Source: an uncultured Chitinophagales bacterium (GTDB taxonomy: Bacteria; Bacteroidota; Rhodothermia; Balneolales; HLUCCA01). From it: a stretch of 64,000 nt of DNA. Positions 241-61,281 of the stretch are shown here, piece after piece. Each line of letters begins with the position of its first letter. The first letter of the stretch is position 1. Location of the stretch: the NCBI GenBank assembly GCA_964473555.1, contig CAYYPL010000005.1, forward strand, positions 43,977 to 107,976, written 5' to 3'. The position numbers were made by a program, and so were the translations under genes. The notes beneath the pieces are model-generated. The model had not been told where the DNA came from and ran no database searches. It saw only the letters and a program-made list of their open reading frames with translations.

Positions 241-521
241 GAGCGGGCAAGCGGGCAAGCGGGTGAGCAGATTTTTGTGTACAAGGGTCAGATAGATCAC
301 AGAACAGAGTACAGAGTGCACAGTGCACAGAATACAGTACACAGAACACAGTGCACAGAACACCGAACAGAGTACACACAAAGAGTTGAACAGTTAGGTC
401 AGAGGGTAGATCAGGGGTCTCGGGTGTGTATAGTGTAATTTGGGTGTGGTAATAGGAAAGCCCTATGCGAGTTCACGGAGATTGATACCGCTAGTTTGCC
501 AGCCCGCTTGCCCGCTTATGG
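241..521. repeat. Modular simple-repeat element: GCGGGCAA arm, CACAG-heptad array, complementary CCCGCTTG arm
   Basis: 241..270 is GAGCGGGCAAGCGGGCAAGCGGGTGAGCAG. 297..380 is an array of about 12 CACAG-type heptads (ACAGAGT, GCACAGT, ACAGAAT and similar). 498..521 is GCCAGCCCGCTTGCCCGCTTATGG, the reverse-complement type of the first arm. The element lies in the divergent region between the aminotransferase start (222) and the capD-like start (849). Track ORFs 22..438(+) and 92..379(-) are read-through artefacts of it. Confidence 0.85.
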
Positions 522-4149: not shown

Positions 4150-5694
4150 GTGCGTTCAATCGCGTTTTTTTTCGTAATCTGTTTCTGGGTCACTGCGTTG
4201 CAGGCACAGATCGCCGAGTCTGTGATCTTGAATGATGCTCGTGGTGCCAAATCTGATCTCGTAATGCGTGGAGCGTCGTTCCGCGCAGGTGCACCTGGCT
4301 TGTCTGTATTACCCATTCACAGTGGATATTATTACAATTCCCGATTTGCCTGGGGACCAAATATGGGTAATCTCTGGCTCGGACGTGGATTCACCCAGGG
4401 ATTGTCGGCTGGAATCCGGTATACAAACCGATTTTTGGATATTCAGTTCAACCCGGTTCTGCTAGCCTCCGAAAACCGTTATTTTACGCAACCCACCGAT
4501 GGAGATCGGTATCAAGGCCGTGATCTGGAGTATTATGAGTATGTGCAGGGCAATATCGATGCTCCGCTCAGGATTGATGACACCTCGTTTTCAAGAGTGT
4601 TACCGGGCGATTCCTGGGTAAAAATCCACCTTTGGAAGCTAGCTGGTGGTATAAGTAACGAAAATCTGTGGTGGGGTCCGGGGAAACGAAATTCTCTGCT
4701 GATGAGTAATCATGCTCCCGGTTTCTGGCATTTATCCGGACACACCACATCGCCTCTTGATTTGTATGCATTTGACATCGAGGGACAGGTAGCCGTTGGG
4801 CTGCTGGAACCGTCTTATGCCCTGGACGACTACCGTGCTGACTATCGGGTCATTTTCAATGGGCTTGTTCTAAGTTTGAGTCCGAGATTCGACAAAAACC
4901 TCAAGCTTGGAGTCATCCGGACATTTATTCTGAATCAAAATGATATTTTGAATCATGCGGGGTACTTCCCGCTATTTCAGCCTTTTTTGAAAAATAATCT
5001 GACATTACGTGACGACAACACGACCAATGATCCCGACGACCAGCGGGCTTCGGCATTTGTATCCTGGGCGTTTCCACGAGCAAATTTCCATGTCTATGGC
5101 GAGTACGCGAGAGATGACCATAGTGCTGATCTGAAGGATTTGTACTTGCAGCCGAATCACAACCGGGCTATTTTGTTCGGCCTCCAGAAACGATGGAATA
5201 CAACTCAGGGCCTCTGGTCATTTACCTCCGAGTTTGTTCAACTCGAAACCACCAATACTAAGGTTATTCGCTGGTTTGAAACATTTTACACACACACCAG
5301 GGTCGAACGAGGTTATACCAACCGCGGTCAACATCTGGGAAGTCATTATGGTCACGGGTCTAATGGATGGTATTCCAGCGTGTATCGCATGAACGATAAA
5401 TGGACAACAGGTTTCGTGTTTGAACGCGTAGCCAGAAACAAAGATCTGTATCAGTGGATCAAAGAGAACCGTAAGCCTGCGCAACCCGAGATCGAAACTA
5501 CGTTTGGTCTGGTGGGTTGGTATCGGACAAAAAACATGGATTTCGGCCTTGAGGTCTACCAAAACTTTGTTCAAGATCGATTTATGGTAGGTATCCGTCC
5601 GGCAGAGGGGGAGCAGCGGGTGTCTTATGATCCCGTGAATTTCAACATACAGTTTACGGTGACCTATCGGCCGGGATTGCGGTGGGGTAAATGA
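4150..5694 (+). CDS. Outer-membrane beta-barrel protein, capsule-assembly Wzi-like (tentative family call)
   Basis: The track ORF is 4066..5694. The likely start is GTG 4150, which gives the signal peptide (M)RSIAFFFVICFWVTALQAQ. It is an aromatic/Gly-rich beta-strand protein with the motif LWWGPGKRNSLLMSNHAPGF, which I recall from Wzi-family proteins. It is a paralogue of the next gene. Confidence 0.55.
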   Translation: MRSIAFFFVICFWVTALQAQIAESVILNDARGAKSDLVMRGASFRAGAPGLSVLPIHSGYYYNSRFAWGPNMGNLWLGRGFTQGLSAGIRYTNRFLDIQFNPVLLASENRYFTQPTDGDRYQGRDLEYYEYVQGNIDAPLRIDDTSFSRVLPGDSWVKIHLWKLAGGISNENLWWGPGKRNSLLMSNHAPGFWHLSGHTTSPLDLYAFDIEGQVAVGLLEPSYALDDYRADYRVIFNGLVLSLSPRFDKNLKLGVIRTFILNQNDILNHAGYFPLFQPFLKNNLTLRDDNTTNDPDDQRASAFVSWAFPRANFHVYGEYARDDHSADLKDLYLQPNHNRAILFGLQKRWNTTQGLWSFTSEFVQLETTNTKVIRWFETFYTHTRVERGYTNRGQHLGSHYGHGSNGWYSSVYRMNDKWTTGFVFERVARNKDLYQWIKENRKPAQPEIETTFGLVGWYRTKNMDFGLEVYQNFVQDRFMVGIRPAEGEQRVSYDPVNFNIQFTVTYRPGLRWGK

Positions 5695-7394
5695 TCGGTG
5701 CCGTGTTGATTTACCTGGCACTGGTACTTGGGTATCAGGTACAAGCAGGGGATTCCGTTAGAGCTTCTTCGGTGGCTATGGAGAGTGTTACGGATAGTGT
5801 ACAGATTCAGCAGGTTGCCATGCCAACGGACTGGCGCGGGGAAGTACGTGCGTTTCGGGACTCTCAGACGCTTGGATTGCTGCCATTAGAGCCTTCGCTG
5901 TTGTTTTGGACGGGCACATGGGCGGTTTCGGCCAGGCAAGTGACCCCGGATGATGCAAAAAAACTGCGCATTGAGTTACAGGATGTACGTGCTACTTTCG
6001 TAGCAAACACAGAATATGGATATGCACGAAACTATGGAGCTGTGTTTCCATCCAATGGCAGAACAGGGTTGTATACTTTTCATGCCAGTGCGCGATATGG
6101 GGGTCTGTCCATCAATCTGGCTCCTGAAATGGTTGTATCTGAGAACAAACCCTTTCAATTGTATCCCTCAAAATATCCCGATTGGTTGTGGGATTTATTA
6201 TACACCAATTATCTGAACCAGATTGATCAGCCTGAACGCTACCGCGAGTACTCGTATATGCAGTTATTGTCTGGTAATTCATCAATTGGCTATGCTACGC
6301 GAGGGATGGAAGTGGCGTTAACCACCCGGTCGATGTGGTGGGGGCCAGGGCGAAGGAATAGCCTGTTGATGAGTACCAATGCACCTGGATTTGCACATAT
6401 AAGCATCAATACCGTCCGTCCGGTCAAGCTTCCCTGGGGCGGAATTGAATTTCAGTGGTTTCTCGGCAGATTGGTAGATTCGGGCAGAGAGCCTTTACCA
6501 CCACGACTGTTCGAAAATTTTCAGCCAATGCCTTATGTCCCGAAACCAGATGACTGGCGACTCTTACAAGGATTACTGGCAATTTGGCATCCGAAATGGA
6601 GTCCGGGTCTGTATATTGGGGTGGGTCGAACGGTAATGGGATACTCTGAATCGATTACACGTGTGGATCATGCGTTTTCTGTATTCAGATCATTAACCAC
6701 AGAGCTTCTGGATACCGATGAGATCCAGAATCCGGATTTACGGGAGCGTTTTGATGATAAGATTGCCGCCTATGTGCGTTATGTGATGCCTGAAGATCGG
6801 TTGGAGTTCTATGCGGAGGTGGCTAGAAATATGCGACCAGGCTCATTGCGCGACTTTCTTGCTCGTCCCGAGCATACCCTGGCTTACACGATTGGCATCA
6901 GTAAATGGTATGAGTTAGGACAAAGTGATCGGTTCTTAGGTATAGAAGCTGAGTTTACGCAGATGGAGAAGCAGAATACCTGGCAAGAACGCTATTACCA
7001 GACGTGGTACACGAGTCTGATTGTGCCGCACGGTTATACGAATCGTGGACAGATCATGGGCGCTTCAATTGGTCCCGGAAGTAATAGCCAGTATCTTGGT
7101 TTTAACTATCGTTGGAGGCAAAATAGAGTCGGTACTTTTGTTGAACGGGTGATATACAATAATGATCTGTACTACATTTTGTTCACAACGAGCATCTACA
7201 GGTTGTGGTCGGATGTAAATTTTGGGTTGTCTGGAGAATATCGTTATGGCAAGTTCGATGTGTTCTATGATGCTACCGTGATGAGGACGTTTAATTACAA
7301 ATATATTGAAACGACCACTCGTCCGGGATTTAAGTATGAGGGTAAAGACGTGTGGAATTTGAATCTCGGGCTAGGTGTCAGATACACCTTTTAG
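5691..7394 (+). CDS. Outer-membrane beta-barrel protein, Wzi-like paralogue
   Basis: 567 aa. The start overlaps the upstream stop (ATGA at 5691..5694). It shares the motifs MWWGPGRRNSLLMSTNAPGF and GYTNRGQIMGASIGPGSNS with the upstream gene. It ends ...GLGVRYTF, and a terminal aromatic residue is typical of OM barrels. Confidence 0.55.
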   Translation: MIGAVLIYLALVLGYQVQAGDSVRASSVAMESVTDSVQIQQVAMPTDWRGEVRAFRDSQTLGLLPLEPSLLFWTGTWAVSARQVTPDDAKKLRIELQDVRATFVANTEYGYARNYGAVFPSNGRTGLYTFHASARYGGLSINLAPEMVVSENKPFQLYPSKYPDWLWDLLYTNYLNQIDQPERYREYSYMQLLSGNSSIGYATRGMEVALTTRSMWWGPGRRNSLLMSTNAPGFAHISINTVRPVKLPWGGIEFQWFLGRLVDSGREPLPPRLFENFQPMPYVPKPDDWRLLQGLLAIWHPKWSPGLYIGVGRTVMGYSESITRVDHAFSVFRSLTTELLDTDEIQNPDLRERFDDKIAAYVRYVMPEDRLEFYAEVARNMRPGSLRDFLARPEHTLAYTIGISKWYELGQSDRFLGIEAEFTQMEKQNTWQERYYQTWYTSLIVPHGYTNRGQIMGASIGPGSNSQYLGFNYRWRQNRVGTFVERVIYNNDLYYILFTTSIYRLWSDVNFGLSGEYRYGKFDVFYDATVMRTFNYKYIETTTRPGFKYEGKDVWNLNLGLGVRYTF

Positions 7395-7475
7395 TCGCTT
7401 GGGTTTCGGGATGTATTGTGTTCGTTGAGTATTCCTTCGCAAAAACAGACGTCCAGCTTTAAATGCCACCACGTT

Positions 7476-7634
7476 CCCTCATCCCTCATCCCTCATCCCT
7501 CATCCCTCATCGCTCATCCCTCATCGCTCATCGCTCATCGCTCATCCCTCATCGCTCCTCCCTCGTCAAAAATCTTAGCCCTGTGTACTGCAAACTGCAT
7601 CCTGCGAACTTGTGCTCTGCATACTGTGCTCTGT
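7476..7634. repeat. Modular simple-repeat element (C-rich orientation): 13 CCCTCAT/CGCTCAT heptads plus a CTGTG/CTGCG array
   Basis: 7476..7566 is 13 consecutive 7-nt units (CCCTCAT x4, then CGCTCAT/CCCTCAT mixed, ending CGCTCCT CCCTCGT). 7579..7634 is GCCCTGTGTACTGCAAACTGCATCCTGCGAACTTGTGCTCTGCATACTGTGCTCTG. The reverse complement gives the same module order (CACAG array, then GACGAGGGA + GGGATGA heptads) seen in the intragenic blocks at 15-16.7 kb. Track ORF 7416..7661 is an artefact of this element. Confidence 0.85.
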
Positions 7635-7830
7635 AATCATTGTACTGATTACTCCGAATGAAATGAGGATTCGTTGTGAAATCTGAGCACTTTCTGCAAG
7701 GATTATCATTTTCATCACTCATATATATGATCGAGGGTTTGTCGGGTGATGAAGTGTGCCACTGAGCGAACTTGTCCCCCTCCCACCTCCCTTGATCTTC
7801 ACATTCATTTAACGATCAAGAGGTTTAACC

Positions 7831-9981
7831 ATGAAAACAATGATTCTACTGATTTTTATTCTGATCACTTCAACCGGAGTGATTTTTGGCGCCTTTCAGA
7901 GTGAAGATCCTCCACCCCGAACATTTCAGGTGCAAGTTCAGGAATTTTATAGCGAAGGGGACGTGATTGCAATCACGTTTGAGACCCCAGACACACTGAA
8001 TATTTATGCACTGGAGGCCGATGTTCTGTTCGACCCTAAATGGTTGACCTACCAGGGTGGGACTACGGTGAGTCCACATGAAGACGCAATGTTTATTGCT
8101 GAAGCACGTGGTCCCAATCATATCGGTGTTGGATTTACACGAACTTCCAGAACAGACTCATCCTGGACCGGATCTATTTTTACGCTTACTTTTCTGGCGA
8201 AAGAAGTGCTCGATTCTACGCTAACTTCCATTAGATTTTTAAACATCCTGGGATATGACAATCTGGGTAATTCACTGGCTGTCAATGCGATGAATCCCGT
8301 TTCGTTTACGATTATTAATGCATCTACCGGGGATGGGGATGATAGTGGTTCGGGTGACGGGGGTAGTGATGATGACGGAAATGACACGGGAGGAAGTGGT
8401 GGATTTGATCCGAATACCGATCCTGAAATTTTGGTAGATGCTTCCTATTTGTGGCAGGTTGTCGTGCAGTACACGTTTAAATTTGAAAACACGACTCCTG
8501 TAAGATCAAATTTTGCAAACCGGCACAGACTCTTTTCTTTGGAAAAAGGAGATTTTACGTACGTGGATGGAACCTATGGAGTGAAACTGCTTCGAAGTAC
8601 CGGTTGGAATGGGGCTTCGGATAAGTCAAAATTTTGGCATACGAGTGTGAATACCCAACATCAGGATAGTGTTCGTCTGCGATGGCAGCAGTATGGATCA
8701 TTGTCTGGTCCTCGCGATTTTTATGTAGAGTACAGACTCGATGAGGTAAACTGGATCAAAGTTCCGAATAGCGACTACTCCATCAACGATTCCAGTACCC
8801 CTGCCAATTCAACATATATTCTGAATTTACCCTCTGAATTAGCCCAAAAAGAGCAGGTTGATTTTCGATGGGTAATGGCATCAGAAGTTAGAATCGATTC
8901 TTCCGGAGCTGCTATTGCATCACAAGGAACGAATATCATGGGAGGGATTTCCATTCAAGGTATCGCAGAAGATAATACGTTCTATGTGCAACGACTCGGT
9001 GATACGAACAATGACGGAAAAACGGATCACACGGATATTTTACCTATCGGTATGTTCTGGAGGTCTGCGGGTACGTTTATGAAGAATCCCCCTCCATCTG
9101 GTTGGATACGTGTCAGCAGGCAACGGTGGTTCCCCCAGGAAGCGATGTATGCCGATACCGATGGCGATGGGTTAGTCAGTCAGTCTGACCTGGCCAGAGT
9201 GGGTCGGTACTACGGCTATACCACCTTGTCAGAACGGGCAGGACCCGATTCGTTCACCCTGATGAAATCAGATGGACTCTCATCCAAACAGAAGTTTCGC
9301 GTATCACTGGCAAAACCTACCTTAATCACGGGACTTTCCGGGCAAATCACTGTTCCGGGTATGGATCCGGATACCTATCGCCTACGTGTAACCAGTCCGG
9401 TACCGGACCTTTTAACCCAGGAAGCGGGTGATCTTGAGGTACTCGATGGTGTACGCCTGTTGGACTGGAGTAAAAAAACGGATGATGGATATGCCTTTGC
9501 ATGGGTTGACCGTTCCATATTTTCAATGAATCGAAAAACCGTAGTGAGTCATCTTCTTGACATTGAAATCGAGCGACTGGATGGTCAACCTATCGAAAAT
9601 ACCCTTGAACTATCTGGCATTTCGATTGTTGAGGCGGGTATTCATCTTAAAACGAATGCACCAATCAAGGTTGAGCAGTTACATCAACGCGGTAACGATG
9701 ATGGAACCCAGTTACCCGGTGAGTTCGACCTGTTACCGGCCTACCCGAATCCGTTTAATCCCTCAACAACGGTTACCTGGACACTTCCCGAAAGCATGAG
9801 CGTTAGATTATCGCTGGTAGACATGCTTGGTCGGGAGGTAATGGTCTTGGCGCAAGGAGAACAACAAGCAGGATATCATCGGATGCAACTCGATGCAAGC
9901 AGACTTGCCAGTGGATTCTATCTGCTTCGATTGCAGGGAGCTGGCATGCAGCGTATCCAAAAAATTGCCCTGGTGAAATAA
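7831..9981 (+). CDS. Secreted T9SS cargo protein with cohesin-like N-terminal domain, two dockerin-like EF-hand repeats and a C-terminal T9SS sorting domain
   Basis: It has a signal peptide (MKTMILLIFILITSTGVIFGA) and a G/D/S-rich linker (STGDGDDSGSGDGGSDDDGNDTGGSGG). Two Ca-binding dockerin-type loops are present (GDTNNDGKTDHTDI and ADTDGDGLVSQSDL). The C-terminus LPAYPNPFNPSTTVTWTL...GFYLLRLQGAG..QKIALVK matches the type A Por secretion tail. Confidence 0.8.
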   Translation: MKTMILLIFILITSTGVIFGAFQSEDPPPRTFQVQVQEFYSEGDVIAITFETPDTLNIYALEADVLFDPKWLTYQGGTTVSPHEDAMFIAEARGPNHIGVGFTRTSRTDSSWTGSIFTLTFLAKEVLDSTLTSIRFLNILGYDNLGNSLAVNAMNPVSFTIINASTGDGDDSGSGDGGSDDDGNDTGGSGGFDPNTDPEILVDASYLWQVVVQYTFKFENTTPVRSNFANRHRLFSLEKGDFTYVDGTYGVKLLRSTGWNGASDKSKFWHTSVNTQHQDSVRLRWQQYGSLSGPRDFYVEYRLDEVNWIKVPNSDYSINDSSTPANSTYILNLPSELAQKEQVDFRWVMASEVRIDSSGAAIASQGTNIMGGISIQGIAEDNTFYVQRLGDTNNDGKTDHTDILPIGMFWRSAGTFMKNPPPSGWIRVSRQRWFPQEAMYADTDGDGLVSQSDLARVGRYYGYTTLSERAGPDSFTLMKSDGLSSKQKFRVSLAKPTLITGLSGQITVPGMDPDTYRLRVTSPVPDLLTQEAGDLEVLDGVRLLDWSKKTDDGYAFAWVDRSIFSMNRKTVVSHLLDIEIERLDGQPIENTLELSGISIVEAGIHLKTNAPIKVEQLHQRGNDDGTQLPGEFDLLPAYPNPFNPSTTVTWTLPESMSVRLSLVDMLGREVMVLAQGEQQAGYHRMQLDASRLASGFYLLRLQGAGMQRIQKIALVK

Positions 9982-14596: not shown

Positions 14597-17005
14597 ATGA
14601 ACAAAGCATTTCCATATTTAGTAATCGGTTTTGTATGGTTGTTGATAGTAAATTTAATCGATCACACTGGTGAGTTTCCACTGATTGATGACTGGGCGTA
14701 TGCACATGGAGTGAAGGACTTTTTAGACGATGGGCTGCTGAAGATCTCCGATTGGGTAGCCATGACCCAGGTAGCTCACTTGTTCATGGGTGTAGCATGG
14801 GTGAAGGTGTTTGGATTCTCGCTGGAACATCTACGCGAGATGACCCTGTTGATCAGTTTTTTGGGATCCTTTGTATTCTACTGGCTAACCGGCTATTTCT
14901 CGACGCGTGTCACACACCGGCTTGTCGGGACCCTCATCATCACAGTGAATCCGATCTGGATGTATCTGAGTCATACGTTTATGACGGATGTGCCTTTTAC
15001 AACCTTATTCTTGGCTCTAATACTCATTTTAATCAAAATTGTATACCCTAAAAAAGAGTACTTAGCGCACAAAGCACAGGAAGTTCAGGAAGATCAGAGA
15101 GTACACAGCGCACAGGGCGCAGAACACAGTAAAGAGGTAGACGAGGGAAGAGGGATGAGGGATGAGAAAGAGCAGAGGCCAACGGGCGAGCGGGCAAGCG
15201 GGCAAGCAGAAGGGCTGTTTACTGGTTACCGTTTACCGTTTACAGATAACCGCTCACCGCTACTTCCCACTTCCTACTTCCTTCTACCATTGATTCTGGT
15301 ATTGAGCTCCATACTTGTTCTAATCCGCCAGACCGGACTGGGACTCGGATTTTCCTTCCTGCTGTGGGTCTTGTTGATGGACAGAGATCGGAGAGGCAGG
15401 TTTTGGGGTTTGGCGTTGGCGCTGGTGGGGGTTCAGGTGTCAACTTTGATTGGATACGAGTGGTTTATGGCCTCGATTGACGCCTTGTCGACCCGGTATC
15501 ACGGTGCCTCGAGTCTGAGCTGGATCCTGGGTCGGCCATGGTGGGTGGTCCGGGCTGCATATTACGTGCTGATCCAGTTGCAGTATCTGGGTATGTTCCT
15601 GCTTCCGTTATTACCGTTTGTGTGGATGAAGTGGAGGTCGGTGGGGGCAGGGAACTATTCCCGCTGGGCGTATATGGCGGCAGGTGTGGTGGTGTTGGGT
15701 ATGGGCGTTGCTGTGGGAGGGGATATACTGATGAATCCACGCTACACTCATTTGATGCAATACGATACCGTTGGACATGTCATGACGATCGACTTCACTT
15801 ATGAAAGGCTGGAGTTTAGTCGGAATTTGTATCCACTTTGGGTGGTTTTGCATGGGTTGGGACTGGTGAATGTGTTTATGATAGTGGTAGTGGGGAGTAG
15901 GAAGTGGGGAGTAGTAGCACGCAGTTCACCGTTCACAGTACACAGTGAAGGAATAGACGAGGGACGAGGGATGAGGGATGAGGGAGATAAGAGGCTAGCG
16001 GGCAAGCAGGCTAGTGGGCTAGCAGAAAGACAGAAAACAGTAAACAGTAAACGGATAACAGAAGGCCATTTTAGTGCAGAAGGGTCAGAAAGTACAGATC
16101 GTGCAGGGGGCAGAGATGGGGGATTCATGGGCCGTTTACCCTTTTCTGTTTACCGTTTACTGAAAACACAACGTGCGTTTGATCATCCCGTAACCTGGAT
16201 TATCCTTATTCTGGCTGGTTACACCGTTTTTATTTCCATCGGACAGTTCGTTTTTGACCGATATCTGATACTGCATTTACCTTTGTTCGTTCTACTGGTT
16301 TTGCATCTTGTACAAAGTTCACAAGTTCACTTCACGAAAACAGTAAACAGTAAACGGACAACGGAAGGTGAGCAAGCAGGCAAGCGGGAAAGCGGGATAA
16401 CGATAGTGTACAGTTCACTGGGCACAGATCGCAGTAGGGATGCTGACGAGGGACGAGGGACGAGGGATGAGCGGGTGAGGGGGCAAGCAGAGTTGGCGCA
16501 CAAAGATCAGGAAGATCAGGAAGATCAGGAAGTGCAGGAGACAGAAGAGAGTGCAGGGGCAAGGGATCAGAGTGCAGGGGCAAGGGAGCAGAGGTTAGAG
16601 AATGAAGTAGATGGGCCGTTTACCGTTTACCGTTTGCCGTTTACTCATTCTCTTATCCCTAATCCCTTATCCCTTATCTTTCTAACGCTATCACTCCTAT
16701 TCTCAATCACTGGCGTGCACGACAGCTTCAAATGGAATCGGGTTCGGTTCGGGGCTATCGAACAACTTGAGGCCCAAGGAATCAGTCCGCATCAAATAGA
16801 CGGTGGAGCGGAATACAATTCGTGGCAACGCACCGGTCCGATTCAACCCTTACGCCTGAATGAGAAAAGCTGGTGGTATGTAGATGGGGACGATTATGCT
16901 ATTGCACACGAAGAGATCCCTGGATACAAACGCATCGCAGCGTTTCCGTTTACAAGATATTATGGGCTGGAGAGTGACACACTTTACATCGTTCAAAGAA
17001 AGTAG
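14597..17005 (+). CDS. GT-C-fold polytopic membrane glycosyltransferase (ArnT/PMT_2-like) carrying three in-frame repeat-derived insertions
   Basis: An uninterrupted 802-aa ORF with many hydrophobic helices. An acidic DD motif sits in the first loop (FPLIDDWAYAHG), as in GT-C enzymes, and there is a soluble C-terminal domain (about aa 700-802). Three charged low-complexity loops are encoded by repeat blocks at 15065..15288, 15884..16160 and 16337..16678. The family call is by pattern only. Confidence 0.65.
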   Translation: MNKAFPYLVIGFVWLLIVNLIDHTGEFPLIDDWAYAHGVKDFLDDGLLKISDWVAMTQVAHLFMGVAWVKVFGFSLEHLREMTLLISFLGSFVFYWLTGYFSTRVTHRLVGTLIITVNPIWMYLSHTFMTDVPFTTLFLALILILIKIVYPKKEYLAHKAQEVQEDQRVHSAQGAEHSKEVDEGRGMRDEKEQRPTGERASGQAEGLFTGYRLPFTDNRSPLLPTSYFLLPLILVLSSILVLIRQTGLGLGFSFLLWVLLMDRDRRGRFWGLALALVGVQVSTLIGYEWFMASIDALSTRYHGASSLSWILGRPWWVVRAAYYVLIQLQYLGMFLLPLLPFVWMKWRSVGAGNYSRWAYMAAGVVVLGMGVAVGGDILMNPRYTHLMQYDTVGHVMTIDFTYERLEFSRNLYPLWVVLHGLGLVNVFMIVVVGSRKWGVVARSSPFTVHSEGIDEGRGMRDEGDKRLAGKQASGLAERQKTVNSKRITEGHFSAEGSESTDRAGGRDGGFMGRLPFSVYRLLKTQRAFDHPVTWIILILAGYTVFISIGQFVFDRYLILHLPLFVLLVLHLVQSSQVHFTKTVNSKRTTEGEQAGKRESGITIVYSSLGTDRSRDADEGRGTRDERVRGQAELAHKDQEDQEDQEVQETEESAGARDQSAGAREQRLENEVDGPFTVYRLPFTHSLIPNPLSLIFLTLSLLFSITGVHDSFKWNRVRFGAIEQLEAQGISPHQIDGGAEYNSWQRTGPIQPLRLNEKSWWYVDGDDYAIAHEEIPGYKRIAAFPFTRYYGLESDTLYIVQRK
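15065..15288. repeat. Intragenic repeat block 1 (CACAG / GACGAGGGA-GGGATGA / GCGGGCAA / CCGTTTA / CTACTTCC modules)
   Basis: 15065..15130 holds CACAG-type units. 15137..15166 is GTAGACGAGGGAAGAGGGATGAGGGATGAG. 15185..15209 is GGCGAGCGGGCAAGCGGGCAAGCAG. 15215..15243 is CTGTTTACTGGTTACCGTTTACCGTTTAC. 15260..15288 is CTACTTCCCACTTCCTACTTCCTTCTACC. The block translates in frame as ..AHKAQEVQEDQRVHSAQGAEHSKEVDEGRGMRDEKEQRPTGERASGQAEGLFTGYRLPFTDNRSPLLPTSYFLLP. Confidence 0.85.
15884..16160. repeat. Intragenic repeat block 2 (GGGAGT-GGAAGT / CACAG / GACGAGGGA-GGGATGA / GCGGGCAA / GTAAACA ... CCGTTTA modules)
   Basis: 15884..15917 is GTGGTAGTGGGGAGTAGGAAGTGGGGAGTAGTAG. 15917..15947 holds CACAG-type units. 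15953..15985 is ATAGACGAGGGACGAGGGATGAGGGATGAGGGA. 15992..16024 is GGCTAGCGGGCAAGCAGGCTAGTGGGCTAGCAG. 16034..16054 is AAAACAGTAAACAGTAAACGG. 16132..16160 is CCGTTTACCCTTTTCTGTTTACCGTTTAC. The block translates in frame as ..GSRKWGVVARSSPFTVHSEGIDEGRGMRDEGDKRLAGKQASGLAERQKTVNSKRITEG...GRLPFSVYRLL. Confidence 0.85.
16337..16678. repeat. Intragenic repeat block 3 (GTAAACA / GCAAGCGGG / CACAG / GACGAGGGA / 9-mer x3 / 21-mer x2 / CCGTTTA / CTTATCCC modules)
   Basis: 16337..16357 is AAAACAGTAAACAGTAAACGG. 16367..16396 is the GCAAGC/GCGGG arm. 16442..16490 is GCTGACGAGGGACGAGGGACGAGGGATGAGCGGGTGAGGGGGCAAGCAG. 16505..16533 is GATCAGGAA x3, encoding DQEDQEDQE. 16548..16589 is a 21-nt unit AGAGTGCAGGGGCAAGGGAKC x2. 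16616..16644 is CCGTTTACCGTTTACCGTTTGCCGTTTAC. 16644..16678 is CTCATTCTCTTATCCCTAATCCCTTATCCCTTATC. The frame stays open throughout. Confidence 0.85.
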
Positions 17006-17008
17006 TAA

Positions 17009-17289
17009 GTGCACAGTGCACAGTACGCAGAGCACAGTGCCACAGAACGCAGTGCACAGTGCACAGTACGCAGAACGCAGAGCACAGTGCACAGTACGCA
17101 GAGCACAGTGCACAGTACGCAGAGCACAGTGCCACAGAACGCAGTGCACAGAGCACAGTACGCAGTACGCAGAGCACAGTACGCAGTACGCAGAGCACAG
17201 TACGCAGTACGCAGAGCACAGAGCACAGACCACCGTTTTCTGTATACCGTTTTCTGTATACCGTTTTCCGTTTACCGTTTTCTGTTTAC
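17009..17289. repeat. Long CACAG-type heptad array (about 30 units) followed by CCGTTTTCTGT units
   Basis: 17009..17228 is tandem GCACAGT / ACGCAGA / GCACAGA / ACGCAGT units (consensus RCRCAGW), starting 4 nt after the stop of the GT-C gene. 17233..17289 is CCGTTTTCTGTATA x2, then CCGTTTTCCGTTTACCGTTTTCTGTTTAC. The stop codon of the convergent GT2 gene (17286..17288) lies in the last unit. Six track ORFs, one per frame, run through it. Confidence 0.9.
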
Positions 17290-29680: not shown

Positions 29681-30763
29681 ATGTTACAACCCACTATCTA
29701 TACCCTGACGCGTCCTTTTTTGGTGCTGATTCTTCTGAGTCTTCTGAAGACTACCGGCACATTCGCCCAGACCTTTAATCCGTACGGTCCGATGCAACAC
29801 GCGTCCCCTGGATCGATTTTGCCACAATCTGTCGGAGAAAAAGGCTTCAATGAGTTCTGGAACTACCATGTCTATCTGGAACAGGATATCAGAATCCACA
29901 TCACCTTTTCTGCCGTTGATTTTGGATCGATAAAGGCACCTATCGTTGGACTTCGCATGTCCATACAAAACTTCGATGGCAAAACCTGGCACGTATCCCG
30001 GGAATATCCCATTGAGCTTCTTACGGTTCACAAGGACCAGTACAAAGTGATGATGCATCCGGAACGGGAATTGTACTTTGCGGGAAGATTGCCTGACCAG
30101 CACAACGTCGTAGTTTATCTCATCAAAGACGAAATTGAATATCGGGTTGAGCTCAATTTTTCTCAGATGGAACCCTCACTGGTCTGGGGTGACGGGAAAT
30201 ATGGGATAAAAGACACGGGAATCCATGTGATCACACACATTCCCTATGCACGGGTACGTGGATTTATTGAAATCAATGGAAAACGGCAGAATGTATCCGG
30301 TACTGCCTACATGGACCATAGCTGGCAATACGAATCCAGTGTGAAGCTCATACATAGTGCATATAAGTTTGTATCCCACAAAGACCGCAATAACTGGGAA
30401 ATCATCTATATGGTATTACCTCAGGCAAAAGGAGATTATCAGACTATTGGACACCGCATTTCGAGCCACGACGGGAGTATCCGGCATCATGGAATCAACC
30501 GGATAGACTCGCACGAGAACGGAACCATTGAGGGAAATCGCGTATTCAAATTACTCAAACTTAACCTGGGATCTGAAACAGTAACTCTGCATCGAACATC
30601 CGATCGTGAAATCCACACCACATTCGGGGAGTTGAACTGGATTTCACGTAGAAGCGTCCGGACACTTTTGGGTGGAGAGATCATAGATTACAGGGGTCGG
30701 GGTGAGCTGCGGGTTAATGGCAGCGTACATCAAGGCGAATATTCGTTTTTGGTGATCGATTGA
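29681..30763 (+). CDS. Secreted hypothetical protein (weak AttH/CrtC lipocalin-like resemblance)
   Basis: The track ORF starts at GTG 29675, and ATG 29681 is more likely. Signal peptide MLQPTIYTLTRPFLVLILLSLLKTTGTFAQ. It is beta-rich. The GTAYMDHSWQY segment is reminiscent of the DHxWG motif of AttH/CrtC-type proteins. Function unknown. Confidence 0.5.
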   Translation: MLQPTIYTLTRPFLVLILLSLLKTTGTFAQTFNPYGPMQHASPGSILPQSVGEKGFNEFWNYHVYLEQDIRIHITFSAVDFGSIKAPIVGLRMSIQNFDGKTWHVSREYPIELLTVHKDQYKVMMHPERELYFAGRLPDQHNVVVYLIKDEIEYRVELNFSQMEPSLVWGDGKYGIKDTGIHVITHIPYARVRGFIEINGKRQNVSGTAYMDHSWQYESSVKLIHSAYKFVSHKDRNNWEIIYMVLPQAKGDYQTIGHRISSHDGSIRHHGINRIDSHENGTIEGNRVFKLLKLNLGSETVTLHRTSDREIHTTFGELNWISRRSVRTLLGGEIIDYRGRGELRVNGSVHQGEYSFLVID

Positions 30764-30797: not shown

Positions 30798-31089
30798 GGG
30801 ATAACAGAAAAGGGAAATGAGTATGGCGAGCGGTTAGGCAGTGGGGAATTGAGGGATTTGAATTTTGGACTCCTATTTTTTTCGAAGAAAAAAACTCATC
30901 AGACAATATATTTCACAAAACGAAGAAAAGATTAAATTGGTGAGCTGAAAGCGGCGAGAAGTGGAGCAGGCTAGCGGTCAGGAAATGGGGAATGAGAAGT
31001 TCACTTACGAGCAACGTTCTCAAACTTCATTCTAGACCCTTATATATGATTTCCGCTTGCAATTCGAACCCTCAACCCAACTCCCATTT
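30798..31089. repeat. Degenerate modular element (G-rich left arms, complementary C-rich right arm)
   Basis: 30798..30860 is GGGATAACAGAAAAGGGAAATGAGTATGGCGAGCGGTTAGGCAGTGGGGAATTGAGGGATTTG. 30951..31000 is GCGGCGAGAAGTGGAGCAGGCTAGCGGTCAGGAAATGGGGAATGAGAAGT. 31051..31089 is TTCCGCTTGCAATTCGAACCCTCAACCCAACTCCCATTT, which is complementary in type to the left arm. Confidence 0.4.
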
Positions 31090-49224: not shown

Positions 49225-49345
49225 AGTAAACAGAAACCGGTAAACAGTAAACAGCCCATCGGGGTGGTGAGTGAATGTACCGCTCGCTGCTTGCCGCTCA
49301 CAGCTTACTGCATGGTCGTTTACTGTTTACTGTTTACTGTTTACG
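49225..49345. repeat. Modular element: GTAAACA arm / core with CTTGCCGC fragment / CTGTTTA arm
   Basis: 49225..49255 is AAGTAAACAGAAACCGGTAAACAGTAAACAG. 49280..49300 is CCGCTCGCTGCTTGCCGCTCAC. 49316..49345 is GTCGTTTACTGTTTACTGTTTACTGTTTACG. The two outer arms are complementary heptad arrays about 60 nt apart. Confidence 0.85.
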
Positions 49346-59013: not shown

Positions 59014-59034
59014 GAAGCGGGGAGCAGTATTTTA

Positions 59035-59206
59035 GGGAGTGGGAAGTAGGGAGTGGGAAGTAGGAAGTAGGGAGTGGGGAGTGGGGAGTCGGAATGATTT
59101 TCTACTTCACTGAATTTTACAGATATTAAGACAATGTGGTTGGTTATTTCTATCGTATGGGATTATTGTCATAAATCTACTACCCATTTCCTACTTCCAA
59201 CTACCC
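59035..59206. repeat. Modular element: GGGAGTG/GGAAGTA heptad arm (8 units) / AT-rich core / complementary CTACTTCC arm
   Basis: 59035..59093 is GGGAGTG GGAAGTA GGGAGTG GGAAGTA GGAAGTA GGGAGTG GGGAGTG GGGAGTC GG. 59177..59206 is CTACTACCCATTTCCTACTTCCAACTACCC. It contains TTCCTACTTCC, the exact complement of GGAAGTAGGAA in the left arm. The element starts 22 nt after the FolB-cupin stop and ends 42 nt before the peptidase ATG. Confidence 0.88.
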
Positions 59207-59247
59207 AAAGTTTAATTGACTTAACCCAAAATCTAAACGTATCTACT

Positions 59248-61281
59248 ATGAATCTATTCCAAAAATCATTGCGGAGTCTGTTACCCTTACTGGTGCTCAT
59301 AACGCTGGTTGTGTTCCCGGCTTTCGCCCAGCGCCCAATGACGGCCGATGATATCGCGGCAGTCAAAAACGTTGGATTCACTCAGATCTCGCCCGACGGA
59401 CAATACGTGGCTTACACCTTGGTGGTTCCGGCAGATCCAAAGGTTGAGAATCGATCCGCTTCCAGTCACTTGTATGTGTATAATGTGGCATCAGGTCAGA
59501 GTACAGCCCTACTCACTTCGGGAGCTATTGGAAACATCCAGTTCAGACCAGAAAAAGGTACCCTATCATTTATATCACGTCGTGATGGGGATCAAACTAC
59601 ATCACTTTACGAAATGCCTGTAACCGGAGGTGATCCTGTAAAACTGTACTCCCATGAAACCAACATTCTGATGTACAGCTGGGCTGCGGACGGGAATCAT
59701 ATTCTGTATACCGCCAATGAGATTGTTGAAAAACCAAAAACCGGGTTACCGTATGAACCCGAAATCTATGAAGAGTTCATCCCAAATCGGAGGTTGTTCA
59801 TCACCAATGTGAACATGGAAGACCATCCCCCTCATCGCGTAGACTTACCGGGGACCGTTTACCTGGCCGAATTCAGCCCTGACAAAAGTAAGATCGCAGT
59901 ATCTGTAGCGCCAACACCACACGTTGACGATCAGTATATGGCGCAGCGTATCCATGTGCTCGATTATAAGACTCGTGAAGTCATTGCAACGATCGACAAT
60001 GCCGGAAAACTTGGTGAGATTCACTGGAGTCCGGATGGTACTCAGCTGGCTCTTCGTGCAGCGAATGATTTGAATGATCCTACAGACGGGCGGTTGATGG
60101 TGGTTTCTGCAAGCGGAGGTACACCATTAAATATTGCTCCGGCATTCAAAGGGAAATTTGAGCAACTTCGCTGGAGTGATGCCAATACCATTCATTTCAT
60201 TGCCAGTGAGGGAGTTCATAGCACTTTTGGGACTATTCGTCCGGACGGTAGCGCATTCACAAGAGTCATCGAGCCGGGCGGACCGATATTGACCCGATTT
60301 ACGGTCTCAAAAAACGGACTGATCGCCTTTACGGCAAATACCCCAACACACCCGGCAGAACTATATCTGTATCGTGAAGTCAGGCGGAACATCAGGGAAT
60401 TGGTTCGTGCTACCGATTCGAATCCTGAATTGAAATCCATCCGTATGGCTCGGATTGAAGTGATTCGCTACGCAGCCCGTGACAACGAATATGAAATCGA
60501 GGGCATGCTGTATTATCCGTTGAACTACACAGAAGGTCAACGTTATCCCCTGATCACCGTGGTTCATGGTGGACCAGAAGCGCATTATAGCAATGGATGG
60601 TTAACCGGATACTCGACCGCCGGACACCAGGGAGCTGGTGAGGGATACTTCGTATTTTATCCGAACTATCGTGGTAGCACGGGGCGTGGTATCGATTTTG
60701 CTTACTCCAGCCAAGCCGATATGGCAGGCAAGGAGTTTGATGATATCGTAGATGGGGTAGATTACCTGATTGCACGAGGGCTCGTTGACCGTGACAAAGT
60801 TGGAGTAACCGGTGGATCGTATGGTGGATATGCTACTGCATGGATGAGTACCTATTATTCCGATCGTTTTGCTGCTGGAGTCATGTTCGTTGGGATCAGC
60901 AACAATGTGTCTAAATGGGGAACCAGTGACATTCCCGAGGAATTGTACCATGTCCATGCCCGTAAGCGTATTTGGGATGATTGGGAGGGTAAACTGAAAT
61001 CTTCTCCAATTTATTATGTAGACCGTGCACAGACTCCATTGTTAATTATGCACGGTAAAGAAGACACCCGTGTGCATCCAGCTCAGTCCATGGAATTGTA
61101 CCGCCACATTAAAGTTCGTAAGCCGGATCTGCCACTTCGTTTGGTGTATTATCCAGGTGAAGGTCATGGAAATACCCGAAGCACTTCCCGTTACGACTAC
61201 AATCTTCGTGCAATGGAATGGTTCAACAGACATCTCAAAGGGGAAGAAATCCAGCGTCAACGAGATTTGGAAGGCCAGTGA
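59248..61281 (+). CDS. S9-family serine peptidase (prolyl oligopeptidase / acylaminoacyl-peptidase type)
   Basis: The track ORF starts at 59134, inside the repeat. ATG 59248 gives the signal peptide MNLFQKSLRSLLPLLVLITLVVFPAFAQ. It has N-terminal beta-propeller SPDG repeats, the catalytic GxSxGG (VTGGSYGGY), an Asp (HGKEDTRV) and a His (YPGEGHG). Confidence 0.9.
   Translation: MNLFQKSLRSLLPLLVLITLVVFPAFAQRPMTADDIAAVKNVGFTQISPDGQYVAYTLVVPADPKVENRSASSHLYVYNVASGQSTALLTSGAIGNIQFRPEKGTLSFISRRDGDQTTSLYEMPVTGGDPVKLYSHETNILMYSWAADGNHILYTANEIVEKPKTGLPYEPEIYEEFIPNRRLFITNVNMEDHPPHRVDLPGTVYLAEFSPDKSKIAVSVAPTPHVDDQYMAQRIHVLDYKTREVIATIDNAGKLGEIHWSPDGTQLALRAANDLNDPTDGRLMVVSASGGTPLNIAPAFKGKFEQLRWSDANTIHFIASEGVHSTFGTIRPDGSAFTRVIEPGGPILTRFTVSKNGLIAFTANTPTHPAELYLYREVRRNIRELVRATDSNPELKSIRMARIEVIRYAARDNEYEIEGMLYYPLNYTEGQRYPLITVVHGGPEAHYSNGWLTGYSTAGHQGAGEGYFVFYPNYRGSTGRGIDFAYSSQADMAGKEFDDIVDGVDYLIARGLVDRDKVGVTGGSYGGYATAWMSTYYSDRFAAGVMFVGISNNVSKWGTSDIPEELYHVHARKRIWDDWEGKLKSSPIYYVDRAQTPLLIMHGKEDTRVHPAQSMELYRHIKVRKPDLPLRLVYYPGEGHGNTRSTSRYDYNLRAMEWFNRHLKGEEIQRQRDLEGQ

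What the first reader, a model, noticed from the sequence alone, without database searches (positions are those of the whole stretch)
7476..7567. Canonical G-quadruplex motifs embedded in the repeat modules
The minus strand of 7476..7566 reads (GGGATGA/GCGATGA)n. It includes four consecutive GGG tracts with 4-nt loops (GGGATGAGGGATGAGGGATGAGGG), which satisfies the G3+N1-7 x4 consensus. The plus strand of 59035..59093 has at least 7 GGG/GGGG tracts, mostly with 3-5 nt loops. Block 2 (15961..15985, GGGACGAGGGATGAGGGATGAGGG) and block 3 (16450..16485) also meet the consensus inside a coding region. The GCGGGCAA arms supply three tracts each. These elements could therefore form G4 structures in DNA or RNA rather than, or as well as, hairpins. 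That would have consequences for transcription, translation or replication at polysaccharide genes.
Basis: partly seen in the sequence, partly recalled or inferred. Interest (0 to 1): 0.5.

Follow-up and report, generated by a model that had tools for sequence, protein, structure and literature searches.

The report
G4-capable heptamer repeats, by-product not device
The G-quadruplex motifs are really in the sequence, but they arise automatically from purine-rich 7-base tandem repeats scattered at hundreds of sites in this uncultured Bacteroidota genome, and nothing in the genome suggests they are kept for quadruplex formation.

Summary
The minus strand of 7476-7506 has five GGG tracts with 4-nt loops. 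The other three loci (15961, 16450, 59035) also meet the G3N1-7 rule, with G4Hunter 1.5-1.9. The GCGGGCAA arms have only three tracts.

The genome holds 132 such motifs against 9-34 in Markov simulations. 61 of them lie in period-7 arrays that cover 0.49% of the DNA.

These arrays belong to a genome-wide class: 361 arrays, 109 different units, 78% purine on one strand. GGG-bearing units behave like the others:
- No sense/antisense bias (28:33 in spacers between same-direction genes, 13:20 inside genes).
- G-tract positions are no better kept than loop positions (8.2% against 6.4% mismatches).
- No clear peak at four units.
- The array is not conserved at the orthologous site in a same-genus genome.

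The leading-strand excess fits GC skew.

The layout matches the G4-forming heptamer repeats of Xanthomonas and Nostoc (Rehm 2015): purine arm after stop codons, and convergent inverted pairs. In context, hairpins outcompete G4 at 59035 and 16450.

This scan reached the same verdict on other genomes.

The parts
7476..7506 (-). Canonical G4 motif: five GGG tracts separated by ATGA loops
   Evidence: Regex scan. G4Hunter 1.58, and ViennaRNA with G4 energies gives -8.4 kcal/mol against 0 without.
7475..7567 (-). Tandem heptamer array of 13 units (8 ATGAGGG-type, 5 ATGAGCG-type). It reads as TCCCTCA/TCGCTCA on the + strand and is a lone arm with no complementary partner within 400 bp.
   Evidence: TRF: period 7, 12.9 copies, 91% matches. 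Unit list. Best complementary match nearby is 10 of 14.
7570..7650 (-). Adjoining degenerate heptamer array. It is CACAG-type on the minus strand and CTGTGYA-type on +, the same word as at 298-378 and 17011-17228.
   Evidence: Read directly from the sequence. The word family ACACAGT has 16 arrays genome-wide.
5691..7394 (+). Upstream gene, a Wzi-like outer-membrane protein. Its stop codon lies 82 nt before the array.
   Evidence: Pfam PF14052, E 5e-17.
7653..7830 (+). Block upstream of the next gene that is conserved in a same-genus genome (probable promoter/leader). The arrays lie outside it.
   Evidence: The match to G002 starts at query position 746, about window 7645. Sequences read.
7831..9981 (+). 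Downstream gene: a secreted protein with a T9SS C-terminal sorting domain.
   Evidence: Pfam PF18962, E 2.5e-9.
59033..59093 (+). [quoted passage not shown] The canonical motif is 59035-59057.
59170..59206 (+). Pyrimidine-rich partner arm (CTACTTCC-type) that pairs with 59033-59093.
   Evidence: 12 of 14 complementary. The spacer RNA folds as one long hairpin at -77 kcal/mol with no G4 in the minimum-energy fold.
15961..15984 (+). Canonical G4 motif on the sense strand inside the open frame 14597-17005 (repeat block 2).
   Evidence: A G4 is present in the minimum-energy fold of the block (-76.5 against -67.1).
16450..16483 (+). Canonical G4 motif on the sense strand inside the same frame (repeat block 3). 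It is predicted to pair with the pyrimidine arm at 16652-16678.
242..263 (+). GCGGGCAA octamer arm with three G tracts only, so it is below the four-tract rule.
   Evidence: TRF. G4Hunter 1.1 and no G4 in the fold.

Best explanation
The stretch 7475-7567 is one array of a genome-wide class of fast-evolving, strongly purine/pyrimidine-asymmetric 7-base tandem repeats, in an uncultured Bacteroidota genome whose nearest records are labelled Chitinophagales.

Units that contain GGG are about a third of the vocabulary. Any run of four or more such units satisfies the G4 rule, so the motif is a by-product of the repeat class.

The arrays most likely grow and shrink by replication slippage and are replaced quickly; this step is inferred, not shown. 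Typically they come as a purine-rich arm followed by a pyrimidine-rich arm, which together form a long hairpin. The array at 7476 is a lone arm in the less common orientation.

The G-rich single strand can very probably fold into a G4 in vitro, by analogy with measured G3N4 heptamers. I found no sign that quadruplex formation is selected or used in the cell.
For: Concentration in heptamer arrays:
- There are 361 period-7 arrays with 109 different units, and 130 of them have a GGG unit.
- 61 of the 132 motifs lie in period-7n arrays that cover 15.3 kb, 0.49% of the genome.
- By G4Hunter the whole genome is not G4-rich: 0.39 regions per kb, against a mean of 0.585 for Bacteroidetes/Chlorobi in PMC6539912.

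GGG follows from composition:
- Units are 38% G and 39% A on one strand.
- Permuting the letters within units predicts 102 GGG arrays against 130 seen.
- Counted by distinct unit, the figures are 23.4 expected against 29 seen, z about 1.7.

No selection on the G tracts:
- G-tract positions mismatch more often than loop positions (8.2% against 6.4%); in 64 arrays the tract rate is higher and in 32 lower.
- Only 53 of 130 GGG arrays hold a canonical motif.
- Runs of GGG at period 7 number 74 (n=3), 19 (n=4), 20 (n=5), 4 and 4. Control trinucleotides decay in a similar way.

No transcription-strand bias.

GGG and non-GGG arrays obey the same layout rule: the purine strand is on + in the left half of a spacer and on - in the right half. 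For GGG arrays the counts are 39:17 against 8:27; for the others 41:18 against 21:49.

Turnover:
- At the orthologous site a same-genus genome (G002) has other words (CTGTTTAC-type), and G003 has no array at all.
- Units differ from lineage to lineage across the order: GGGATCG, GGGACTA, GGGAATC, GGGCATT and others.
Against: - GGG units are somewhat commoner than composition alone predicts when arrays are counted singly (130 against 102).
- GGG arrays are slightly longer than the others (median 4.4 against 3.9 copies, p = 0.003), with a mode at 3-5 copies. This is a weak echo of the four-unit preference reported for Xanthomonas.
- G-rich heptamers recur in unrelated phyla, which could mean that G3N4 units are favoured for some reason.
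- My gene calls are home-made (codon log-odds on ORFs), so some sense/antisense assignments are wrong.
Slippage and transcription are therefore inferred.
Confidence: 0.7

Rival explanations
1. The array is a working DNA G-quadruplex element. The G-rich template strand folds when the duplex opens, and it slows or blocks RNA polymerase coming from the Wzi-like gene, or the replisome. This would insulate or tune the downstream T9SS-cargo gene.
For: - Five perfect G3 tracts with 4-nt loops, G4Hunter 1.58.
- No competing complementary arm within 400 bp.
- A G4 is in the minimum-energy fold of the G-rich strand of the whole spacer (-122.0 against -111.2).
- G3N4 heptamers fold in vitro (PMC4692102).
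- GGG arrays are slightly longer than other arrays.
Against: - No strand bias genome-wide.
- G tracts are not preferentially kept, and 5 of the 13 units here already carry GCG.
- The array is replaced by a non-G array in G002 while the block 7653-7830 is kept.
- Non-G arrays have the same placement rules.
- On this contig the G-rich strand is the leading-strand template, which is less exposed as single strand (skew).
Confidence: 0.1
2. For this particular locus the strand that matters is the C-rich sense RNA. (UCCCUCA)n after the Wzi-like gene's stop codon would act as a Rho loading (rut) site that ends the upstream transcript before the next gene's promoter block.
For: - The sense strand of 7476-7567 is 53% C and 7% G, has 43 YC dinucleotides in 92 nt, and is predicted to be essentially unpaired.
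- No intrinsic-terminator-like site in 7300-7900.
- The genome encodes Rho (PF07497, 108.6 bits).
- That Rho prefers long, C-rich, G-poor, unstructured RNA is established knowledge, not tested here.
Against: - Genome-wide the usual arrangement is the opposite. Within 50 nt of a stop codon the purine-rich strand is the sense strand (27:5 and 44:6), so rut function cannot explain the class.
- The array is not conserved in G002, and there is no transcript data.
Confidence: 0.1
3. The array is a leftover arm of a hairpin cassette of the kind that encloses small PF05635 ('23S rRNA intervening-sequence protein') genes. On this reading the heptamer arrays in general are arms of such cassettes, or of their empty derivatives, rather than plain microsatellites.
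For: - In this genome 3 of the 5 PF05635 genes examined (of 6 matches) lie between a purine-rich left array and a pyrimidine-rich right array, whatever the gene's strand. A fourth has the right arm only.
- Only 18 of 2576 called genes have arrays within 150 bp on both sides (Fisher p = 3e-6).
- The same layout occurs in relatives: G025 C21 gene 4764-5081 lies between G-rich arrays at 4648-4685 (+) and 5199-5236 (-).
- When a motif has a partner arm, the G arm is 5' of the C arm in 25 of 30 cases.
Against: - 7476 has no partner arm and no small gene.
- Relatives with many PF05635 copies have no period-7 G3 motifs (G036: 19 copies and none; G021: 13 copies and none). The link, if real, is therefore to heptamer arms in general and not to G4.
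- No mechanism is known.
Confidence: 0.1

Closest known systems
G-rich heptameric simple sequence repeats of Xanthomonas (GGGAATC) and Nostoc PCC 7120 (GGGGAYT), Rehm et al. 2015, PLoS One, PMC4692102
   Same: - Tandem 7-nt units with one G3-4 tract, hundreds of copies, mostly intergenic.
- No leading/lagging or plus/minus preference.
- G strand on the coding strand within 50 bp after a stop codon, and on the non-coding strand within 50 bp before a start codon. Here the counts are 27:5 and 21:1.
- Frequent convergent inverted pairs that could form stem-loops. Here 25 of 30.
- Length and sequence differ between close relatives.
- Only about 40-55% of arrays have four or more intact tracts. Here 41%.
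   Different: - Another phylum (Bacteroidota).
- Many different units rather than one dominant unit (GGGATGA, GGGGAGT, GGGAGTG, AAGTGGG and others), mixed with equally common non-G units (AAAACAG, ACACAGT).
- No clear preference for exactly four units.
- Arrays are stacked into composite modules, and some are translated inside a gene.
- No biophysical data here.
Long simple sequence repeats with 5-11-nt units (heptamers over-represented) in free-living bacteria, Mrazek, Guo and Shah 2007, as cited in PMC4692102 reference 33; cyanobacterial STRR heptamers
   Same: - Genome-wide excess of period-7 arrays over other periods. TRF gives 361 arrays of period 7 against 76 of period 6 and 122 of period 8.
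- Intergenic bias.
- Slippage is the proposed origin.
   Different: I could not fetch the 2007 paper, so I know it only through the citing text and from memory. The strong purine asymmetry and the fixed arm polarity seen here are not, to my knowledge, part of that description.
23S rRNA intervening sequences carrying an S23p/PF05635 ORF inside an RNase III-cut stem (Coxiella burnetii, Warrier et al. 2016, PMC4990558)
   Same: A small PF05635 gene is enclosed by two complementary arms. In this genome three such genes sit between heptamer arrays.
   Different: - These cassettes lie between protein genes, not in rRNA.
- Their arms are tandem heptamers.
- The array at 7476 has neither a gene nor a partner arm.
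- Processing by RNase III is not tested.
Experimentally supported bacterial regulatory G4s, for example the nas promoter G4 of Paracoccus denitrificans (PMC5123632) and the rG4s mapped in E. coli (PMC6974567)
   Same: A G3+ four-tract motif near a gene boundary.
   Different: Those cases rest on ligand or structure-probing evidence at a defined promoter or mRNA site. Here there is none, and the comparative signals (conservation, strand bias) that would suggest such a role are absent. I saw those two papers only as titles and abstracts.

Membership tests
G4-capable G-rich heptameric SSRs (Rehm et al. 2015 class) | Tandem repeat of a 7-nt unit containing a G3 or G4 tract | tested here: met
   7475-7567: period 7, 12.9 copies. 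There are 130 such arrays genome-wide.
G4-capable G-rich heptameric SSRs (Rehm et al. 2015 class) | Dispersed over the genome with excess in non-coding DNA | tested here: met
   265 of 361 arrays are intergenic, although about 88% of the genome is called coding.
G4-capable G-rich heptameric SSRs (Rehm et al. 2015 class) | G strand is sense just after stop codons and antisense just before start codons | tested here: met
   27:5 and 21:1 within 50 nt. The array at 7476 itself is in the minority class: 82 nt after a stop codon, antisense.
G4-capable G-rich heptameric SSRs (Rehm et al. 2015 class) | Frequent convergent inverted pairs | tested here: met
   30 of 132 motifs have a partner with at least 12 of 14 bases complementary within 400 bp, against 5 of 132 random sites. 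The G arm is 5' in 25 of the 30.
G4-capable G-rich heptameric SSRs (Rehm et al. 2015 class) | Preference for four units | tested here: inconclusive
   Runs of GGG at period 7: n=3 74, n=4 19, n=5 20. TRF copy mode is 3-5, and GGG arrays are slightly longer than non-G arrays. There is no sharp peak at four.
G4-capable G-rich heptameric SSRs (Rehm et al. 2015 class) | Oligonucleotides fold into K+-dependent G4 in vitro | not testable with these tools
   Prediction only: G4Hunter 1.5-1.9 and ViennaRNA G4 energy -8.4 kcal/mol. The analogy is to (GGGAATC)3GGG, melting temperature 50.4 C.
Selected regulatory G-quadruplex | G tracts conserved more than loops or flanks, and the element kept at the orthologous site | tested here: not met
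   Tract positions show 8.2% mismatches against 6.4% for loops. The array is replaced in G002 and absent in G003.
Selected regulatory G-quadruplex | Strand bias relative to transcription | tested here: not met
   28:33, 13:20, 20:17 and 28:25.
Heptamer-armed hairpin cassette with PF05635 gene (IVS-like) | Two complementary arms enclosing a small four-helix-bundle gene | tested here: not met
   Not met for 7476: no partner arm and no gene called in the spacer. Met elsewhere in the genome for 3 of 5 PF05635 genes.
Rho utilisation (rut) site | About 80 nt of C-rich, G-poor, unstructured RNA downstream of a gene | tested here: met
   53% C, 7% G, unpaired in the predicted fold. Composition only; Rho dependence cannot be tested here.

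The most novel reading that the evidence does not exclude
The heptamer arrays, G-rich ones included, are not plain microsatellites. They would be arms, or orphaned arms, of a widespread hairpin cassette system associated with PF05635 four-helix-bundle genes.

Its fixed polarity (the purine- or G-rich arm always 5' on both strands, the same polarity as the 3'-ended G strand of telomeres) would reflect a strand-specific way of making or processing them. G4 folding of the purine arm could then be part of that mechanism, competing with the hairpin.

A reverse-transcriptase route is already unlikely. No RVT_1 gene was found in this 98.9%-complete genome or in the array-rich relatives.
Probability: 0.12. 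Interest if true: 0.65.

Novelty: new member of a known kind. Interest (0 to 1): 0.22.

Why it matters
G4 motif counts are often read as evidence of regulation in bacteria. Here nearly half of all canonical motifs in a genome come from one repeat class covering 0.5% of the DNA. Internal controls (non-G heptamers with the same placement) show that the motif alone carries no functional signal.

What remains puzzling is the repeat class itself. It has a strong purine asymmetry and a fixed arm polarity in every gene-orientation class. It also recurs around PF05635 genes. These features now appear in Bacteroidota as well as in Xanthomonas and cyanobacteria, and they have no accepted explanation.

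Tried and rejected
- **Population variation by another route:** The look-up of encoding contigs with the Wzi-like protein gave two Logan contigs. One has an identical array, and the other ends inside the array. No variation was seen, but with only two contigs this says little.
- **Reverse transcriptase or telomerase-like origin of the polarity:** no PF00078 match in G000 or in the array-rich relatives, while the genomes that do have it are array-poor. Rejected.
- **Rfam scan of the window:** only two tRNAs. No known RNA family covers the spacer.
- **Intrinsic terminator in 7300-7900:** none found.
- **Conservation near galE:** the three closest public loci (70-84% protein identity) have no heptamer arrays or G4 motifs within 3 kb.
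- **Taxonomy:** The nearest records I found are labelled uncultured Chitinophagales or Bacteroidetes, and a T9SS sorting domain is present. I use 'uncultured Bacteroidota'.

Full report
**What is there**

On the + strand, 7475-7567 reads TCCCTCA/TCGCTCA thirteen times (TRF period 7, 12.9 copies, 91% matches). On the minus strand the units are ATGAGGG (8, counting two variant end units) and ATGAGCG (5). The five units at 7476-7506 are consecutive GGG units.

- 7476-7506 (minus)
- 15961-15984
- 16450-16483
- 59035-59057

G4Hunter means are 1.52-1.58 and the best 25-nt windows reach 1.92. The GCGGGCAA arms have three tracts and score about 0.8-1.1, so they fall short on their own.

**More than chance, and why**

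The window lies in a 3.14-Mb assembly of 155 contigs with 46.8% GC. Several genes carry T9SS or Wzi domains. The nearest public loci are labelled uncultured Chitinophagales or Bacteroidetes.

The genome has 132 canonical motifs. Markov simulations of order 1, 3 and 5 give 28-34, 9-20 and 13-16.

The excess has one source. 61 of the 132 motifs lie in period-7n tandem arrays that cover 15.3 kb, which is 0.49% of the genome. By G4Hunter the genome as a whole is not G4-rich: 0.39 regions per kb, below the 0.585 mean reported for Bacteroidetes/Chlorobi in PMC6539912.

**The repeat class**

TRF finds 361 period-7 arrays, against 76 of period 6 and 122 of period 8. They use 109 different units. The commonest are AAAACAG (38 arrays), GGGGAGT (25), AGGGAGT (19), AGGGATG (19), AGTGGGT (16) and ACACAGT (16).

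Arrays are sharply purine-rich on one strand, and the purine fraction is bimodal. Unit composition is 38% G, 39% A, 10% C and 12.5% T.

130 arrays have a GGG unit. Random heptamers of genome composition would give 13.6%. Given the purine-rich composition of the units themselves, permutation predicts 102 arrays (130 seen). Counted by distinct unit, the figures are 23.4 expected against 29 seen, z about 1.7. So GGG mostly follows from 'purine-rich heptamer'.

**Tests for G4-specific selection**

1. Strand relative to transcription, using my own gene calls (2576 genes, 87.6% coding).
   - GGG arrays: 28 sense to 33 antisense between co-directional genes, and 13:20 inside genes.
   - Canonical motifs: 20:17 and 28:25.
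- There is no net bias.
2. Replication.
   - The G strand coincides with the G-skewed strand in 38 of 55 motifs and 47 of 85 arrays.
   - With a local skew near 0.05, twelve Gs predict a ratio of about 3.3 and three Gs about 1.35. The observed ratios are 2.2 and 1.24.
   - Composition therefore explains this excess (my arithmetic).
3. Conservation within arrays. G-tract positions deviate from the array consensus more often than loop positions, 8.2% against 6.4% (Fisher p = 0.017). The tract rate is higher in 64 arrays and lower in 32. At 7476 itself, 5 of 13 units carry GCG.
4. Unit number.
   - Runs of GGG at period 7 number 74, 19, 20, 4, 4 and 1 for n = 3 to 8. Control trinucleotides decay in a similar way.
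   - Only 53 of 130 GGG arrays contain a canonical motif.
   - GGG arrays are slightly longer than the others (median 4.4 against 3.9 copies, p = 0.003). I record this as weak evidence on the other side.
5. Orthologous sites.
   - In same-genus genome G002, homology to the window starts at about 7645. The space upstream holds CTGTTTAC-type and GGGGAGT-type arrays instead.
   - In G003 the Wzi-like gene is followed by a different gene and no array.
   - Across 40 relatives, period-7 G3 motifs are patchy (0 to about 100 overlapping hits), and each lineage has its own units.

**Layout rule shared with non-G arrays**

Within 50 nt after a stop codon, the purine strand is the sense strand: 27:5 for GGG arrays and 44:6 for the others. 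Within 50 nt before a start codon it is the antisense strand: 21:1 and 19:4.

Put geometrically, the purine strand is + in the left half of a spacer and - in the right half. This holds in all four gene-orientation classes and with equal strength for GGG and non-GGG arrays.

30 of 132 motifs have a complementary arm within 400 bp, against 5 of 132 random sites. The G arm is 5' in 25 of those 30.

This is the pattern described for GGGAATC in Xanthomonas and GGGGAYT in Nostoc by Rehm et al. 2015. That work also showed K+-dependent G4 folding of such oligos, with a melting temperature of 50.4 C for the G3N4 type. It could assign no function.

**Structure in context**

With G4 energies enabled in ViennaRNA:
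- The sense RNA of spacer 59014-59248 folds as one long hairpin (-77.0 kcal/mol) with no G4.
- The block-3 motif pairs with the pyrimidine arm at 16652-16678.
- Block 2 keeps a G4 (-76.5 against -67.1).
- The G-rich strand of spacer 7395-7830 keeps a G4 (-122.0 against -111.2).

At 7476, however, that strand is antisense to both flanking genes. The sense RNA is 53% C and 7% G and is predicted to be unpaired. That composition is what a Rho loading site looks like, and the genome encodes Rho. I keep this as a minor rival, because the class as a whole has the opposite orientation after stop codons.

**A lead from earlier notes, tested here**

PF05635 ('23S rRNA IVS protein') genes were said to sit inside heptamer hairpins. 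In this genome the picture is as follows:
- 3 of the 5 copies examined (of 6 matches) lie between a purine-rich left array and a pyrimidine-rich right array, whatever the gene's strand. A fourth has one arm.
- Only 18 of 2576 called genes have arrays on both sides (p = 3e-6).
- The number of PF05635 copies does not track G3 motifs across relatives.
- The 7476 array has no gene and no partner.

The link therefore concerns the repeat class, not G4. No reverse transcriptase was found that could explain the telomere-like polarity.

**Verdict**

The motifs are real and very probably able to fold in vitro. They are a by-product of a known kind of bacterial heptamer repeat, seen here in a new lineage.

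I could examine no reads or transcripts. The only other assemblies of the locus were uninformative.

Noticed in passing
G000 C8:27328-27744, C2:8462-8824, C6:9230-9595 (outside the window): Three PF05635 (23S rRNA IVS protein family) genes each sit between a purine-rich heptamer array on the left and a pyrimidine-rich one on the right, whatever the gene's strand. One pair is G-rich (TGGGAAG x22.6 / CTCCCCA x3.3).
   Followed up: partly
genome-wide; in the window e.g. 59033-59093 with 59170-59206, and 49225-49254 with 49318-49344: Fixed polarity of heptamer arrays: the purine-rich strand is + in the left half of a spacer and - in the right half, in all four gene-orientation classes, for G-rich and non-G units alike. 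There is no accepted explanation.
   Followed up: yes
window 7653-7830: A block upstream of the T9SS-cargo gene is conserved with a same-genus genome. It includes an inverted repeat (CTTGATCTT ... GATCAAG) ending about 10 nt before the ATG at 7831. It is a possible leader hairpin over the translation start region.
   Followed up: no
window 59134-59248: The longest ORF of the S9 peptidase starts at 59134, inside the repeat spacer. The ATG at 59249 is followed by a signal-peptide-like stretch and is the more likely start, so the whole module would be intergenic.
   Followed up: no
window 16548-16593: A 21-nt unit repeated 2.2 times, with GGGG/GGG tracts separated by an 11-nt loop. It falls outside the canonical rule, yet ViennaRNA places a G4 there in the block-3 fold.
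   Followed up: no
L002 (G002 C22), about 2540-2660 on the minus strand: A run of N sits inside a (GGGGAGT/AGGTAGT) array, and in L090 a Logan contig ends inside the TCCCTCA array. These arrays break short-read assemblies, so array counts in draft genomes are underestimates.
   Followed up: no
relatives G007 (C5, C9, C12): A same-family genome carries perfect GGGAATC arrays, the very unit described for Xanthomonas. One lies next to a PF05635 gene (G007 C5: gene 30358-30660, array 30833-30856).
   Followed up: no
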